In this document: in pieces, positions 1,578 through 4,310 of the stretch | Layout: every line of letters starts with the position of its first letter | Position numbering within the stretch: the stretch's first letter is position 1 | Origin: a virus | Lineage: Duplodnaviria > Heunggongvirae > Uroviricota > Caudoviricetes | Length of the DNA: 4,310 nucleotides | Virus record (IMG/VR): IMGVR_UViG_3300029437_000178 | Reading direction: 5' to 3' (one strand) | Position numbers and translations under genes: made by a program | Notes under the pieces: model-generated | Database searches by the model: none | Told to the model about the DNA's origin: nothing | The model's input: the letters and a program-made list of their open reading frames with translations, nothing else

Positions 1578-2480
1578 TTAACCCTCCAGTGCTTTTTCAG
1601 CCAGGGTGATTACTTCAGCGAGATTTTCATCCGTTACTTCACCAAGTTTCCTGGCTCCCTGTTTTTCCAGAATTGCAATAGCTTCTGCCCGGTAACCCCC
1701 TTTTGCTAACTGGAGGATCAACCCTTCAGCTTGTTTGCGTAGTGCCGCGAAATCAATTGTATGGTCATCTTTGGCGTCATGATTCTGGCTGGAATTTGCT
1801 GCGTCTCTGCGTGCAAATTCTTCTTGCAGCTGAAGGTACTCAACACGGTTGATCTCGATATGGCCTTTTTTCAGCATCTCGTTCAACTTGCGTAAGGTGT
1901 GGAGTTCACTGGCTGCTGTGCCGGATACATTTTTGACGTAAAACGGCCCCGTGCGTTCTCCATCTTTGTTACTGGCCTTTTTCGGCTTAACTTCATCACG
2001 CCCATCCGCAGGTGCATCAAGTAGCTGCTCGGCAAAAACACGTCGCTCGCCGATGGTTGGCAGGTCGTCCCAGAACTTAAGGATGTTACGGGACAGGTCC
2101 AGGAGAGCAGGTTTAAGCAGCGCCCTGGCTCGTTTGACGCCCTGCAATGCGCTGTCGAGAGCATCAATCTGAACTACTCGTTTATCGCCTTCAGCATCAC
2201 GGTAGGCAACAGCACGTTGCAGCATGTCTTCTGTGATAGGGGTGGCTACCGGGTAGAAACCAGCCAGTGCGATAACGTCGCTGAACTCCAGATCATCCAG
2301 TGTCATTGCCGCTGACATATTTTCAGTTTCAGTTGCTGTATCCCGACATTCCTGCACTCGTGAAATCGTGTCAGGATGCATAACAATGCCTGATGCCATT
2401 GTGCGGATAAGACGTTCAAGCAGCGCATTATGTTGTGCCAGAAGTTGATTATTAAGTTCGAGACTGGTTTCTAAACTCAT
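1578..2480 (-). CDS. Hypothetical phage protein, 300 aa, acidic and predicted largely helical; likely functional partner of the downstream nuclease
   Basis: 300-aa ORF with SD GAGG 8 nt upstream of the ATG. Its ATG overlaps the stop of the upstream small ORF (ATGA) and its stop sits 2 nt before the nuclease ATG, indicating translational coupling. No Walker A motif and no family signature I recognise. Confidence 0.75.
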
Positions 2481-2647
2481 ACTGTGGTCCTCGCTACAAG
2501 GAGAATGAAAGTGATGATCAGACCGAGCGCAGTGGCAACGGCCAGACCGGTCATCAAATCGAAGTTTTTACGGCGATAACGGAGAACATCGCGCCCCGTC
2601 AGTCGATGGAGGTATTCAGGTTTCATCGGTTGTATTCCTTTTTTCAT
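2477..2647 (-). CDS. Small protein with a C-terminal transmembrane helix (49-69 aa depending on start)
   Basis: The ORF track gives 2477..2686, which begins at a GTG. In-frame ATGs at 2647 and 2626 are more plausible, the latter with AAGGA about 9 nt upstream. The C-terminus DLMTGLAVATALGLIITFILLVA is a clear hydrophobic helix preceded by a basic stretch (RYRRK). Its stop overlaps the ATG of the 300-aa gene. Confidence 0.5.
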   Translation of the reverse strand: MKKGIQPMKPEYLHRLTGRDVLRYRRKNFDLMTGLAVATALGLIITFILLVARTTV

Positions 2648-2743
2648 ATCGGGGAGCACGCTGTGAGGCGGGCAAAGGCTACACACAGCAATTACTTGGA
2701 TGTCAGCGAATGCCTGCTTTTAACCACGTCAGACGAGATGGCT

Positions 2744-2812: not shown

Positions 2813-3337
2813 ATGTCTGAAGAAAAAGGACTTGTACGGCGTATAACTGAGGCGGCCACTAGTGCTGGTGGTGCTTTGAAAGGTGCTGTTGATTTAGCAA
2901 AAGAAGTTAATGCGTTGCAGGTGGATTACAATGTTAAAAGTAAAACTATCGATCTACTTGATAAACTAATTGATGCGCGTACTGGACAATTCGCACTAAC
3001 GGAGCTTTTGAACGAAGCTAAACAGCGCATTGTTGAACTCGAATCCCTTCTGGAAAAGAAACAGGATTGGGATAGTGAGAAAATGAACTATGAAATGTAC
3101 CACCCGATTACCAATACGGTGGTCTATGTACTGAAGCCTACTGACGATCCTGAGTTCAAGCCTCATTATCTTTGTACTACATGCTATGAGTCGGGTATGA
3201 AGTCTATACTTCAATACCATACTTCTAATGCCGCTTATAAAATTCTCAAGTGTCATAAATGCTCCGCTGAATATAAATTTCCCCGAAATATAGAAGTCAG
3301 TGGCAAAACTCCTGCACCGTTACAACCTGCCAGATGA
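2813..3337 (+). CDS. Hypothetical protein, 174 aa: N-terminal coiled-coil-like region plus C-terminal C4 zinc-ribbon-like motif (CTTC...CHKC)
   Basis: Clean 525-nt ORF on the strand opposite to all neighbouring genes, with a weak SD-like GAGAG 7 nt before the ATG. It is visibly AT-richer than the flanks (~40% GC versus ~50% by eye). Heptad-like charged and leucine-rich stretch (LLDKLIDARTGQFALTELLNEAKQRIVELESLLEKKQ) followed by CxxC-x22-CxxC. No similarity I can name. Confidence 0.7.
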   Translation: MSEEKGLVRRITEAATSAGGALKGAVDLAKEVNALQVDYNVKSKTIDLLDKLIDARTGQFALTELLNEAKQRIVELESLLEKKQDWDSEKMNYEMYHPITNTVVYVLKPTDDPEFKPHYLCTTCYESGMKSILQYHTSNAAYKILKCHKCSAEYKFPRNIEVSGKTPAPLQPAR

Positions 3338-3430
3338 TTAGCAGTTCTCTTTGGTGGTGGTGTAGTGGTAGATGCTGAACTTCGGATTGACTCAATGGAC
3401 TGATCTTCACCCCACCCCAAAAGGAACTAA

Positions 3431-3448
3431 GCGCCCCATCGTCGGGGC
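3431..3448. terminator. GC-rich hairpin between the converging 174-aa gene and the leftward leader; possible weak or bidirectional terminator
   Basis: CGCCCC-atcgtc-GGGGCG, a 6-bp GC stem. It is followed by TTTCAACTT on the plus strand and CTTAGTTCCTTTT on the minus strand; neither is a strong U-tract. Confidence 0.3.
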
Positions 3449-3493
3449 GTTTCAACTTGCGTGACTTATCAGTTTGTCGCGGTGTTGTCCTCT

Positions 3494-3578
3494 ACGCTTA
3501 CCGTACGCATACGGACTCGGCGCTTACCTCGATCCCATCGGGTGCTATTTCGTTTTGCCAGGAGTACTGCGGCTTACC
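3494..3578. repeat. Three direct copies of GCTTACC (plus strand) in the ORF-free leader
   Basis: GCTTACC at 3495-3501, 3521-3527 and 3571-3577 (8-mers CGCTTACC twice, GCTTACCT twice); spacing 26 and 50 bp. A palindromic hairpin CCGTA-CGCA-TACGG at 3500-3513 overlaps the first copy. Confidence 0.4.
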
Positions 3579-3593
3579 TGTCACGCGGTTCAG

Positions 3594-3606
3594 TTTGTTA
3601 AAGAGC
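3594..3606 (-). promoter_or_regulatory. boxA-like element in the leader RNA
   Basis: Minus-strand GCTCTTTTAACAA, about 30 nt downstream of the predicted start. It resembles the boxA core (CGCTCTT / rrn-type GCTCTTTAACAA) of Nus-dependent antitermination sites, with one extra T. Confidence 0.3.
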
Positions 3607-3619
3607 CAGTATTAAAAAA

Positions 3620-3652
3620 CGCATTAATTATGCGATATCGTATTTATATGCG
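3620..3652. promoter_or_regulatory. Operator-like palindromes overlapping the -10 and start site of the leftward promoter
   Basis: 15-bp near-palindrome CGCATTAATTATGCG (3620-3634; 6 of 7 symmetric pairs around a central A) and a weaker related site CGTATTTATATGCG (3639-3652) sharing the ATGCG half-site. Confidence 0.35.
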
Positions 3653-3671
3653 TTATGGGATTTTGTGTCAA
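3643..3671 (-). promoter_or_regulatory. Near-consensus sigma70 promoter reading leftward (candidate early-left, pL-like promoter)
   Basis: On the minus strand: -35 TTGACA (plus coordinates 3666-3671), exactly 17-bp spacer, -10 TATAAA (3643-3648). An AT-rich UP-like tract lies upstream (3672-3695). Predicted start near 3636. Confidence 0.55.
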
Positions 3672-3700
3672 TACGAAAATGAATTATTTTGCAAATAAGA

Positions 3701-3725
3701 AAACCGCCCTTGTGGAGAGCGGTTT
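3701..3725 (-). terminator. Intrinsic terminator of the repressor transcript
   Basis: Perfect 7-bp stem AAACCGC / GCGGTTT with an 11-nt loop. On the minus strand it is followed by a U-rich tract (TCTTATTTGC...). It lies 30 nt downstream of the repressor stop. Confidence 0.55.
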
Positions 3726-3755
3726 GATCAGAAGTAAGTTATCAGACTGTAAAGG

Positions 3756-4310
3756 TTAGTACATACGTAGCGCGGATTTGGCGATCCCCGCCACGTAATG
3801 GATTTTTTCAATGTTTTCGCGTGGTACTCTGACTGGTGGATGATCTTCATTTACAGACATTAGATGGAACAGGCCATCGCGTTCGAACAAGAAGGTTTTA
3901 ACCATGACCTCACCTTCCCGGGTAACCACAAGTACTTCATCACCAGNNNNNNNNNNAGTCGTGGTTGGGTTCGACGATTACGAACTCCCCCTCTTTGATT
4001 CTAGGCATCATTGAATCACCAACACATTTCAGGGCGTATGCATCTTCATCCTTTGTCGGCCAGTATATGAAACCATCACTGCTACCTACTGAATATTGGG
4101 TGTCGCTCCAAAGTCCTCCAACGCCTAGCTGAGTGTTTCCCAAAACAGGTACTTTATTAAACCTAAGAGAAATATACGTTTTTATACCTGTCGCGTCCTC
4201 TTTCTCCATTTCTTGAAGGCTCCTTTCTGCCAAGTCTATTGGTGACACGTGGAAGTAGTCGGCGATCTGCTTTAACGTTGCGTATTTCGGATCTTTCACC
4301 TCTCCTGATA
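3756..4310 (-). CDS. LexA/CI-type repressor (S24 peptidase family); interrupted by a 10-N gap, and the 5' end probably lies beyond the window
   Basis: Minus-strand ORF 3940..4299 translates to an N-terminal HTH-like segment (TLKQIADYFHVSPIDLAE), a linker (VPVLGNTQLGVGG), then GDSMMP (Ser nucleophile motif) and EGEFVIVEP. After the N-run the other frame continues GDEVLVVTREGEVMVKTF...IHYVAGIAKSALRMY to TAA at 3758..3756, carrying the Lys of the Ser-Lys dyad and aligning by eye with LexA (DGDLLAVHK...VTVKRL). The track's stop at 3940 is an artefact of the gap. The start in the track is a GTG at 4299, and the frame stays open to the window end. Confidence 0.85.
3947..3956. other. Assembly gap (10 N) inside the repressor gene
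   Basis: Run of n characters. Flanking coding frames differ by one position, so the true gap length is not a multiple of 3 or is not exactly 10. Confidence 0.95.

What the first reader, a model, noticed from the sequence alone, without database searches (positions are those of the whole stretch)
3594..3725. Early-left control region: terminator, near-consensus leftward promoter with operator-like palindromes, boxA-like leader element, and no N-like gene
Directly after the repressor terminator lies a TTGACA-17-TATAAA promoter on the same strand. Two related palindromes (CGCATTAATTATGCG and CGTATTTATATGCG) overlap its -10 and start site, as repressor operators do. About 30 nt into the transcript is GCTCTTTTAACAA, which resembles boxA. 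There is no antiterminator ORF downstream; instead a ~300-nt ORF-free leader precedes the opposite-strand gene and then the operon. This suggests either RNA-based (put-like) or host Nus-based antitermination, or that the leader is itself the product.
Basis: partly seen in the sequence, partly recalled or inferred. Interest (0 to 1): 0.55.

Follow-up and report, generated by a model that had tools for sequence, protein, structure and literature searches.

The report
Candidate phage antitermination RNA with boxA
Just after the repressor gene of this E. coli prophage lies a repressor-controlled leftward promoter whose transcript starts with a perfect host "boxA" signal fused to a conserved, previously unlisted ~130-nt folded RNA, which sibling phages replace with the known HK022 put antiterminator RNA, so it is probably a new way for phages to make RNA polymerase ignore stop signals.

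Summary
There is no N gene.

Two corrections. Its core (3586-3459) is a structured domain.

- Structure: 96-97% of cells paired versus 22-40% in slid controls, with 19-23 compensatory pairs.
- Distribution: five sequence classes, behind ~25 unrelated promoter/operator sets, and downstream of an HTH+S24 repressor in all nine other loci tested.
- Not known: no Rfam 15 match, unannotated in 104 E. coli genomes, and no paper found.

Among 54 related phage loci, 28 carry this cassette and 22 carry an HK022 putL-like RNA in the same slot. None has both, and the other four are cut short upstream.

Best reading: a cis-acting processive antitermination cassette (boxA/Nus factors plus a structured RNA). 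The function is inferred, not shown.

The parts
3756..4310 (-). 3' part of the cI-type repressor gene. It runs off the window, and its ORF is broken by a run of 10 N at 3948-3957.
   Evidence: The full-length copy in E. coli IAI1 (L001 12417-13091) has HTH_26/HTH_3 plus Peptidase_S24 domains. It is 61% identical to the annotated repressor of Yersinia phage YeP4.
3691..3725 (-). Intrinsic terminator of the repressor gene.
   Evidence: The terminator scan gives a 10-pair stem with 5 G-C pairs, a loop of 5 and the tail TCTTATTTGC.
3643..3671 (-). PL-type sigma-70 promoter: TTGACA (3671-3666), 17 nt, TATAAA (3648-3643). The predicted start is near 3636.
   Evidence: It matches 11 of 12 consensus positions. 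It is the only such site in the window, against 0.03 expected. TTGACC-18-TATAAA is kept in the related immunity regions of YeP4, L010, L155 and L199. It lacks the T at -7, so the tool scan does not list it.
3648..3661 (.). Operator OL1, ATGCGTTATGGGAT. It lies in the promoter spacer and touches the -10.
   Evidence: One mismatch to ATnCG-N4-CGnAT. Nearly identical to the OR site ATGCGTTATCGGAT at L001 13128.
3630..3643 (.). Operator OL2, ATGCGATATCGTAT. It covers the predicted start site.
   Evidence: Exact match to ATnCG-N4-CGnAT. Three of the four exact matches in the 24.4-kb locus L001 lie in the OL or OR regions.
3611..3624 (.). Probable weak operator OL3, ATTAAAAAACGCAT, with 2 mismatches. 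A further 1-mismatch site lies at 3671-3684, upstream of the -35.
   Evidence: The spacing of 18-19 bp between sites matches the three-site array in YeP4 OL at L003 5080, 5100 and 5118.
3595..3606 (-). boxA, GCTCTTTAACAA. It is the 5' boundary of the mobile RNA cassette.
   Evidence: Exact match, with 0.01 expected by chance. It equals the boxA in the rrn leader, which occurs a median of 7 times per E. coli genome and lies upstream of 16S rRNA. It fits the gamma-proteobacterial consensus GYTCTTTAANA (PMC5725501). It was found in every class A-D leader by a scan that did not require it; only L080, whose 5' part has been replaced, lacks it. Pairwise identity among 24 upstream families jumps from about 0.3 to 1.0 exactly here.
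3459..3586 (-). Core structured RNA domain. The helix strands are:
- P1: 3586-3580 with 3465-3459
- P2a: 3578-3576 with 3473-3471
- P2b: 3571-3569 with 3480-3478
- P3a: 3567-3565 with 3484-3482
- P3b: 3563-3560 with 3491-3488
- near-invariant single strand GGCAAAACGAAAUAGC: 3559-3544
- P4 hairpin with a bulged A: 3543-3526
- optional P5 hairpin: 3514-3501
   Evidence: On the hand-made alignment A2, 97.5% of cells are paired versus 22-37% when slid, 23 of 30 pairs show compensatory change, and 0 of 500 shuffles reach the observed values. On the Infernal alignment A3, 96.4% are paired versus 24-40%, with 19 of 27 compensatory pairs. RNAalifold on a plain MAFFT alignment finds P1-P3 on its own. 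G-U pairs fit only the leftward strand.
3432..3449 (-). G+C-rich hairpin CGCCCCGACGAUGGGGCG. It is the 3' end of the cassette and has a weak, displaced U tract.
   Evidence: Conserved in classes A and C and predicted in every fold. Sequences downstream of it diverge into many families.
3340..3426 (-). Long imperfect hairpin (GGGGUGGGGUG...CACCACCACCAAAG). It is a separate leader module, shared by put-carrying and boxA-RNA-carrying siblings.
   Evidence: RNAalifold consensus energy is -37.8 kcal/mol on 5 sequences, with little covariation. The same module follows the put RNA in L331-L366.
2813..3337 (+). Opposite-strand 174-aa 'moron' gene inserted between the leader and the operon. The leftward transcript must cross it as untranslated antisense RNA.
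   Evidence: ORF. It matches phrog_1244 (unknown function) and has no Pfam or PADLOC match. Siblings carry a different 181-189-aa gene or none at this place.
2477..2626 (-). First ORF of the leftward operon: 49 aa with a basic N-terminus and a hydrophobic C-terminus. It is followed by the 300-aa (2480-1578) and DUF2800 (1575-274) genes.
   Evidence: RefSeq calls the 49-aa form. It matches phrog_11981. The 49-aa ORF is present in both put-carrying and boxA-RNA-carrying siblings.

Best explanation
The region is the early-left promoter/operator (PL/OL analogue) of an N-less lambdoid-type prophage. Its transcript begins with a self-contained cis-acting processive antitermination cassette.

Shown:
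- A cI-type HTH+S24 repressor gene ends in a terminator.
- A near-consensus sigma-70 promoter follows, overlapped by 14-bp operators of the type also found between cI and cro.
- About 30 nt into the transcript there is a perfect boxA.
- Eight nt later comes a ~128-nt domain with strong covariation support, then a GC hairpin.
- The cassette is a mosaic unit found behind about 25 unrelated promoter/operator sets.
- In sibling phages with the same promoter, the same downstream leader hairpin and the same operon, the cassette's slot is occupied by an HK022 putL-type RNA instead. No locus has both.

Inferred:
- When the repressor leaves OL, RNA polymerase transcribes the cassette.
- boxA recruits host NusB/NusE (S10), and through them NusG/NusA.
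- The adjoining structured domain takes the place of the N-boxB unit of lambda nut sites, or acts on polymerase as put does.
- The elongation complex then becomes resistant to Rho and to intrinsic terminators. It can cross the ~950 nt of untranslated leader and antisense RNA. In siblings it can also cross a strong intrinsic terminator placed just before the first ORF, and so express the ~12-kb replication/recombination operon.
For: Control-region anatomy:
- Terminator, promoter and boxA are confirmed.
- Operators: 3 of the 4 exact ATnCG-N4-CGnAT sites in 24 kb lie in OL or OR. YeP4, whose repressor is 61% identical, shows the same three-plus-three layout.
- The repressor is HTH+Peptidase_S24 here and in 9 of 9 other loci tested.

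A real structured RNA:
- Searches give 96-97% paired cells, 19-23 compensatory pairs and slid controls of 22-40%.
- A covariance model built from classes A-C alone finds class E (E about 1e-23) and class D (E about 1e-5 to 1e-6), with exactly one hit in every locus that carries an intact cassette.

A mosaic unit starting exactly at boxA:
-.

Exchange with put:
- Of 54 loci that encode the same first-operon protein, 28 carry this cassette and 22 carry a put RNA that aligns with HK022 putL/putR.
- None has both, and the 4 with neither are truncated upstream.
- The same promoter families occur with either cassette.

Terminators to be read through:
- Canonical intrinsic terminators lie between the cassette and the first RBS in at least 5 downstream families and in IAI1. 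There is no room for another promoter.

Precedents:
- boxA/Nus complexes protect long untranslated RNA from Rho (PMC7665894).
- put is a factor-independent antiterminator RNA placed just downstream of PL (PMC9378689).
Against: - There are no transcript or functional data of any kind, and the start site is only predicted.
- The -10 lacks the usually invariant final T.
- The single-sequence fold is no more stable than shuffles (z = +0.35), so the structure rests on covariation alone.
- Class E keeps the domain but has a degenerate boxA (GCTCATTAAGAA or GCACATTAAAAA), so boxA may not be essential.
- From my own knowledge, rrn-type boxA complexes act mainly against Rho, not against intrinsic terminators. 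The extra activity assigned to the domain is therefore conjecture.
- In this window the strong terminator before the first ORF is deleted.
- Sharing a slot with put shows interchangeability of position, not identity of function.
Confidence: 0.65

Rival explanations
1. It is a nut-type site that needs a phage-encoded N-like protein. boxA binds NusB/E, and the structured domain is an oversized boxB that binds an antiterminator protein encoded elsewhere in the phage.
For: Consensus boxA sequences occur in the nut sites of P22- and 21-type phages (own knowledge). The 8-nt boxA-to-structure spacing resembles the boxA-boxB spacing. The first ORF (49 aa) has an arginine-rich N-terminus, RLTGRDVLRYRRKNF.
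Against: There is no small boxB-type hairpin after boxA. No ORF is consistently linked to the cassette, which is followed by 43 different downstream families. The 49-aa ORF has a hydrophobic C-terminal segment and is also present in the put-carrying siblings, so it is not a cassette-specific partner. The cassette swaps cleanly with factor-independent put in otherwise collinear phages. RefSeq annotates no N gene.
Confidence: 0.1
2. It is a riboswitch-like conditional attenuator. The domain senses a metabolite, ion or host factor and decides whether the downstream hairpins or terminators stop transcription.
For: It is a ~130-nt multi-helix junction with near-invariant unpaired nucleotides (GGCAAAnnGAAAUAGC and GAGGA), followed by hairpins and, in many loci, terminators.
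Against: No alternative pairing links the domain to a terminator. The terminators lie in separate, exchangeable modules 100-1000 nt away. The domain is interchangeable with put, which is constitutive. There is no Rfam riboswitch match.
Confidence: 0.08
3. The leader is itself the product: a ~200-350-nt non-coding RNA made from PL that ends at the GC hairpin or a downstream terminator and acts in trans.
For: It is a conserved structured RNA that ends in a GC hairpin, and some loci have a canonical terminator 100 nt further on.
Against: The GC hairpin lacks an adjacent U tract. In siblings the first RBS abuts the terminator, which leaves no room for a promoter, so the whole replication operon would be silent. 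put occupies the same slot.
Confidence: 0.05
4. boxA acts negatively, as in suhB. Nus factors bound at boxA repress translation or promote Rho termination to keep the left operon low, and the structure is an unrelated processing or stability element.
For: Nus-dependent repression at a leader boxA is documented for suhB (PMC5725501).
Against: In suhB the boxA lies close to the RBS. Here it is more than 250 nt from any start codon, and about 980 nt in this window. The tight boxA-domain linkage across five classes and the exchange with an antiterminator RNA argue for a positive role.
Confidence: 0.04

Closest known systems
HK022 putL/putR antiterminator RNAs (and put-like RNAs of prophages)
   Same: It is a cis-acting structured RNA placed just downstream of the early-left promoter of an N-less lambdoid phage. 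In sibling phages it occupies the same genomic slot as a genuine putL-type RNA, and the two are mutually exclusive.
   Different: There is no sequence or structural homology. put is ~70 nt with two stem-loops (PMC9378689), whereas this is a ~128-nt domain with a long closing helix and a three-way junction. The covariance model gives no hit on the HK022 locus L005, which holds putL and putR. put has no boxA and needs no host factor, whereas this cassette starts with a perfect boxA. HK022 has a left and a right copy, whereas only one copy per locus is found here.
Lambda/P22/21 nut sites (boxA + boxB + N protein)
   Same: It lies in the PL leader. boxA comes first, followed after about 8 nt by a structured RNA. 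Host Nus factors are implied.
   Different: There is no 15-nt boxB hairpin and no N gene. boxA is the full rrn consensus, not lambda's shortened CGCUCUUA (own knowledge). The structure is about 130 nt.
rrn leader antitermination (boxB-boxA-boxC with NusA/B/E/G, S4, SuhB) and boxA upstream of CRISPR arrays
   Same: The boxA core is identical to the rrn leader. It lies at the start of a long untranslated transcript that Rho would otherwise terminate (PMC7665894).
   Different: This is a phage early operon that mostly encodes proteins. A large, unrelated structured domain is fused to boxA. In siblings, intrinsic terminators must also be passed, which rrn-type complexes do poorly (own knowledge).
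Lambda OL/PL operator-promoter region
   Same: The repressor gene is transcribed towards the promoter. Several related palindromic operators overlap the -35/-10 and start site and recur between cI and cro. The repressor is of the HTH + S24 self-cleaving type.
   Different: The operators are 14 bp (ATnCG-N4-CGnAT) spaced 18-19 bp apart, compared with 17-bp sites spaced 23-24 bp apart in lambda (own knowledge). There are no rex genes between cI and PL.

Membership tests
HK022 put antiterminator RNA family | Sequence and structure homology to putL/putR: two stem-loops of ~70 nt with the conserved core GAACGGC...GTCGGG...GGCG...AGGATG...CAATG. | tested here: not met
   The window leader has no resemblance to HK022 putL/putR read from L005. 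The put pattern matches 22 sibling loci and HK022, but none of the cassette-bearing loci. Model R1 gives no hit in L005.
HK022 put antiterminator RNA family | Located in the nascent transcript just downstream of the early promoter of an N-less phage. | tested here: met
   boxA starts about 30 nt after the predicted start here. The -10 ends 17-50 nt upstream of boxA in most of the 25 upstream families. It occupies the same slot as put in siblings.
HK022 put antiterminator RNA family | Factor-independent suppression of terminators through binding to the RNA polymerase beta' zinc-binding domain. | not testable with these tools
   This needs in vitro transcription and rpoC mutants. The presence of boxA suggests factor dependence instead.
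Lambda-type nut site | A boxA sequence in the leader. | tested here: met
   GCTCTTTAACAA at 3606-3595.
Lambda-type nut site | A boxB hairpin (~15 nt, 5-bp stem, purine-rich pentaloop) a few nt downstream of boxA. | tested here: not met
   The 8 nt after boxA lead into the 5' strand of the long-range helix P1. No small hairpin is predicted there.
Lambda-type nut site | A cognate N-family protein encoded downstream. | tested here: not met
   There is no conserved ORF in the leader. The downstream ORFs have no Pfam N-family match and are of unknown function in PHROGs. RefSeq annotates none in the 24-kb locus. A very divergent N cannot be formally excluded.
rrn-type (Nus factor) antitermination signal | boxA matching the gamma-proteobacterial consensus GYTCTTTAANA. 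| tested here: met
   Exact match (consensus from PMC5725501). It is identical to the rrn leader copy.
rrn-type (Nus factor) antitermination signal | NusB/NusE binding and Nus/SuhB-dependent resistance to Rho. | not testable with these tools
   This needs ChIP, EMSA or genetics in nusB, nusE or suhB mutants.
rrn-type (Nus factor) antitermination signal | Flanking boxB hairpin upstream and GU-rich boxC downstream. | tested here: inconclusive
   There is no hairpin upstream of boxA in classes A-D, because the promoter is there. Class E has one, GGCGGAC...GTCGCC. A GU-rich CUGUGUGUAG is conserved, but it lies far downstream, next to the first ORF.
cI/LexA-type repressor-operator switch (OL/PL) | Several related palindromic operators overlapping the promoter and repeated at the divergent cI/cro promoters. 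| tested here: met
   Exact and near matches at 3630-3643 and 3648-3661, and at L001 13128 and 13184. YeP4 has the same layout.
cI/LexA-type repressor-operator switch (OL/PL) | The repressor binds these sites. | not testable with these tools
   This needs EMSA or footprinting.
Any Rfam 15 family | Covariance-model match. | tested here: not met
   Nothing matches in 3340-3700 at E up to 10, and nothing matches on the leaders of classes B-E at E up to 1. One sub-threshold hit overlaps the YeP4 region: MicX, 23 bits against a gathering score of 75, E = 0.57.

The most novel reading that the evidence does not exclude
This is a third kind of RNA-based processive antiterminator. A phage-borne ~130-nt structured RNA, fused to a consensus boxA, assembles the host Nus-factor complex on RNA polymerase without any N protein and makes it resistant to both Rho and intrinsic terminators. 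That would be a protein-free hybrid of the lambda-N, rrn and put mechanisms, carried as an exchangeable cassette among enterobacterial temperate phages.
Probability: 0.4. Interest if true: 0.9.

Novelty: new variant of a known kind. Interest (0 to 1): 0.8.

Why it matters
Processive antitermination has few known solutions: the N, Q and RfaH/LoaP proteins, the rrn Nus complex, and the put and EAR RNAs (this list is from my own knowledge). A new RNA family that sits where put sits but carries a perfect boxA would link the RNA-only and the Nus-factor routes. It would show what can replace N-boxB, and it would give a compact cassette for terminator-proof expression.

It is directly testable because nature has already made the swap. 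Near-isogenic prophages carry either put or this cassette. The cassette is also present, unannotated, in about 2% of complete E. coli genomes, including ETEC H10407 and O103:H2 strain 12009. It therefore bears on how these prophages switch on after induction.

Tried and rejected
- **Rfam:** scans of the window and of five other loci found nothing relevant.
- **tRNA/tmRNA:** ARAGORN on the window and on nine loci found no tRNA or tmRNA in the leaders, although one variant (L137) has a tRNA-like 3' end.
- **Thermodynamic test:** the window RNA is no more stable than shuffles (z = +0.35), so stability is not evidence here.
- **Automatic alignment:** MAFFT plus RNAalifold on all five classes together gave no structure because classes D and E were misaligned. 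On classes A-C it found P1-P3 but mis-drew P4 and P5. I therefore made a block alignment by hand, with gaps written as N so that MAFFT kept it. I checked it with an Infernal alignment from a model that had not seen classes D and E.
- **Collection scan:** the single genome-contig scan was wasted.
- **Plasmids:** no match.
- **Literature:** searches on put-like RNAs, boxA plus prophage, and the conserved sequence strings found no description. King et al. 2011 on put-like RNAs is not held.
- **Rejected readings:**
  - The hairpin CGCAUAAUUAAUGCG-U6 (3634-3620), flagged by the scan, as a functional terminator. It is made of operator half-sites and is broken in L051.
  - The plus-strand ORFs in the leader as genes. 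They are not conserved across classes, and a 26-nt deletion is tolerated in L119.
Full report
**1. What the window is**

The 4310-bp window is 98-100% identical to prophages in 92 complete E. coli genomes, including IAI1, ETEC H10407 and O103:H2 12009. It is 98.5% identical to Escherichia phage vB_EcoM-606R2.

In IAI1 (locus L001) the gene order is as follows:
- integrase
- a long leftward operon: helicase, VRR-NUC, TIR protein, DNA polymerase, DUF2815, DUF2800, a 300-aa protein and a 49-aa protein
- an opposite-strand gene
- an unannotated 420-bp gap
- the repressor gene
- rightward: cro-like gene, VapE primase, Q antiterminator, lysis and head genes

The finding lies in the unannotated gap, read on the minus strand.

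**2. Check of the observation**

- Repressor: the full copy has HTH + Peptidase_S24 domains. It stops at 3758-3756.
- Terminator: stem-loop at 3725-3701 with a T-rich tail.
- Promoter: TTGACA (3671-3666), 17 nt, TATAAA (3648-3643). It is the only site in the window within one mismatch of TTGACA-N17-TATAAT, against 0.03 expected. The -10 lacks the final T, so the tool's stricter scan omits it.
- Palindromes: both exist at 3620-3634 and 3639-3652.
It is an exact copy of the rrn boxA core, with 0.01 expected by chance. A 41-nt rrn leader string containing it occurs a median of seven times per E. coli genome and lies upstream of 16S rRNA. It also fits the published consensus GYTCTTTAANA (PMC5725501).
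- N gene: none. There is only one boxA in the 24-kb locus.

**3. Operators**

- The motif is ATnCG-N4-CGnAT.
- Exact matches in 24.4 kb number four. One is OL2 (window 3630-3643) and two lie between cI and cro.
- OL1 (3648-3661) differs from one of the OR sites by a single base.
- A weaker OL3 (3611-3624) and a site at 3671-3684 complete an array spaced 18-23 bp apart.
- Yersinia phage YeP4 has a repressor 61% identical. It has three related sites over its PL-like promoter and three between its repressor and cro genes.

Isolated sites of this register occur in OR, so this is the operator unit. Binding of the repressor is inferred.

**4. The leader is a conserved, structured, mobile RNA**

*Discovery.* A distant search showed that YeP4 and Enterobacter phage ENT1 share a stretch of the leader. 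Two scans of IMG/VR followed.
- The first scan used a pattern from an invariant stretch only.
- The second used boxA plus that stretch.
- Together they gave about 100 true loci in five sequence classes, A to E.
- In the first scan, which did not require boxA, every class A-D member had the exact boxA. The only exception was L080, whose 5' part has been replaced. Class E has a degenerate version.

*Boundaries and neighbours.*
- Upstream of boxA the loci fall into about 25 unrelated promoter/operator families. Most have a recognisable sigma-70 promoter ending 17-50 nt before boxA.
- Pairwise identity jumps from about 0.3 to 1.0 at the first base of boxA.
- In nine of nine further loci tested, the gene upstream on the same strand is an HTH+S24 repressor.
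- Downstream of a GC hairpin the loci again diverge, into 43 families.
- boxA through the GC hairpin (window 3606-3432) is therefore a mosaic cassette.

*Structure.*
- The core is a long irregular closing helix (P1, P2a, P2b, P3a, P3b).
- The helix opens into a junction with a near-invariant 16-nt single strand (GGCAAAnnGAAAUAGC).
- P4 is a hairpin with a conserved bulged A.
- P5 is an optional hairpin, absent in class D and in L119.
- The junction also carries a conserved GAGGA.

*Evidence for the structure.*
- RNAalifold on a plain MAFFT alignment of classes A-C finds P1-P3, with 7 pairs showing compensatory change.
- On my hand-made alignment of 44 distinct sequences, 97.5% of cells pair, against 22-37% when partners are slid. 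23 of 30 pairs have changes on both sides, and no shuffle of 500 reaches the observed values.
- That alignment was fitted to the structure, so I also built a covariance model from classes A-C only. It finds class E at E about 1e-23 and class D at about 1e-5 to 1e-6, with exactly one hit in every locus that carries an intact cassette. The two sources without a hit are the HK022 locus and L080, whose boxA and P1 5' strand are replaced.
- On the Infernal alignment the figures are 96.4% against 24-40%, with 19 of 27 compensatory pairs.
- P1 is rebuilt from entirely different sequences in classes D and E.
- The G-U pairs fit only the leftward transcript.
- Against this, the single sequence is no more stable than shuffles (z = +0.35).

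**5. Is it known?**

- No Rfam 15 family matches any class.
- RefSeq annotates nothing under it in 104 of 5426 complete E. coli genomes.
- It is absent from plasmids.
- Among 50,697 GenBank phage records, only ten recent and unstudied ones carry it.
- No paper in the library contains its conserved strings.
- It bears no resemblance to HK022 putL or putR.

**6. What it does: the decisive comparison**

I fetched 54 IMG/VR loci that encode relatives of the 300-aa protein of the operon, each with up to 4 kb of upstream sequence.
- The model finds the cassette in 28 of them.
- In 22 others the same slot holds a ~70-nt sequence that aligns along its length with HK022 putL and putR and keeps their invariant core. 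The slot lies immediately after the PL-type -10 and before a shared long leader hairpin (window 3426-3340).
- No locus has both.
- The four with neither are cut off less than 1.4 kb upstream.
- The put-carrying loci have no boxA.
- The same promoter/operator families occur with either occupant. For example...GTTTACAnAATACAACTCAAATTGTAGATTTAAyCCCAAG is followed by put in L367 and by the boxA cassette in L198.

put is an experimentally established, factor-independent processive antiterminator located just downstream of PL (PMC9378689). A non-homologous element that replaces it in otherwise collinear phages most likely supplies the same function.

The need for such a function is visible.
- In IAI1 and many siblings, a canonical intrinsic terminator (GCCCGCC...GACGGGCUUUUUUAU or GCCCCUCGCAAGAGGGGCUCUUUUUU) lies directly before the RBS of the first ORF, with no room for another promoter.
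- In this window the transcript must run about 950 nt untranslated, including 525 nt antisense to a convergent gene. This is the kind of RNA that Rho terminates unless boxA/Nus complexes protect it (PMC7665894).

**7. Mechanism, and what is inferred**

Shown: the anatomy, the conservation, the covariation, the mosaic boundaries and the exchange with put.

Inferred:
- After repressor loss, polymerase starting near 3636 transcribes boxA.
- boxA recruits NusB/NusE and, with them, NusG/NusA.
- The structured domain, placed 8 nt downstream where boxB lies in nut sites, replaces the N-boxB unit or contacts polymerase as put does.
- The result is a termination-resistant complex for the whole left operon.

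I put this at 0.65.

Rivals:
- An N-like partner protein (0.10). This is weakened because no ORF travels with the cassette, and because the arginine-rich 49-aa first ORF is also present in the put-carrying siblings.
- A ligand-sensing attenuator (0.08).
- A stand-alone RNA product (0.05).
- suhB-like negative control (0.04).

Points against my reading: class E has a degenerate boxA, and rrn-type complexes are poor against intrinsic terminators (own knowledge).

**8. Verdict**

Its interpretation is largely right but needs correction on the operators, the boxA sequence and the location of the key feature.

The feature is best described as a new, apparently undescribed family of candidate antiterminator RNA that combines a consensus boxA with a structured domain. 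It is a new variant of a known kind of system. Its interest is high because the put-or-cassette natural swap makes the hypothesis immediately testable.

Noticed in passing
window 3948-3957: A run of 10 N splits the repressor ORF into two mechanical ORFs. The IAI1 copy has 6 bases (GAGTGT) there, so the run is a mask or gap of arbitrary length, not a real frameshift.
   Followed up: partly
window 2813-3337 (+): A 174-aa gene is inserted convergently between the leader and the left operon. It has a coiled-coil N-terminal half and a C-terminal CxxC...CxxC. It matches phrog_1244 (unknown function) and has no significant Pfam match and no PADLOC match. Siblings carry a related 181-189-aa gene on the opposite strand, a small same-strand ORF, or nothing at this place, so it behaves as a moron. 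It could be an exclusion or defence gene.
   Followed up: partly
window about 2655-2677, compared with L001 11270-11330: IAI1 and many siblings have a canonical intrinsic terminator (GCCCGCCUCAAGUGACGGGCUUUUUUAU) just before the first ORF of the left operon. In this window a deletion of about 40 bp removes its 3' half and the U tract.
   Followed up: partly
window 2678-2691 (-): The GU-rich string AUUGCUGUGUGUAG is conserved just upstream of that terminator in many loci. It recalls the rrn boxC (UCUGUGUGGG, from memory). It is far from boxA here, and its meaning is unknown.
   Followed up: no
window 3340-3426 (-); L137, about 170-320 nt downstream of its boxA: A long imperfect hairpin module follows the cassette and is shared with the put-carrying siblings. 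In L137 it is expanded and ends in GGUUCAACUCCCGCCCGCACCACCA, which looks like a T-arm, acceptor stem and CCA. ARAGORN calls no tRNA or tmRNA there.
   Followed up: partly
window 3620-3634 (-): The scan flags CGCAUAAUUAAUGCG followed by U6 as terminator-like, at about +3 to +17 of the transcript. It is formed by the half-sites of OL2 and OL3, and its stem is broken in the close relative L051, so it is probably incidental.
   Followed up: partly
window 2477-2626 (-): The first ORF of the operon is a 49-aa protein with a basic N-terminus (RLTGRDVLRYRRKNF) and a hydrophobic C-terminal segment (phrog_11981, unknown function). YeP4 has a similar small ORF in the same position.
   Followed up: partly
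L004 (Enterobacter phage ENT1), minus strand about 4085-4120; also L017, L023, L070: Class E leaders have a degenerate boxA (GCUCAUUAAGAA) preceded by a hairpin (GGCGGAC...GUCGCC). This is the rrn-like order of boxB then boxA. Their transcript start lies about 65-70 nt further upstream than in the other classes.
   Followed up: no
L001 4726-5487 and neighbours: The left operon of the IAI1 prophage encodes a TIR-domain protein between the DNA polymerase gene and a frameshifted ANR-family regulator gene. It also has two further opposite-strand inserts (3200-3997 and 7662-8291).
   Followed up: no
L127, L136, L139, L142, L143, L146 and others: A recurrent false positive of the boxA pattern: GCTCTTTAACAATCTGGATGACTTA...CTGGCAAAAGAGGAGG occurs in about 15 viral contigs. 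It appears to lie inside a coding region and is unrelated to the leader RNA.
   Followed up: no
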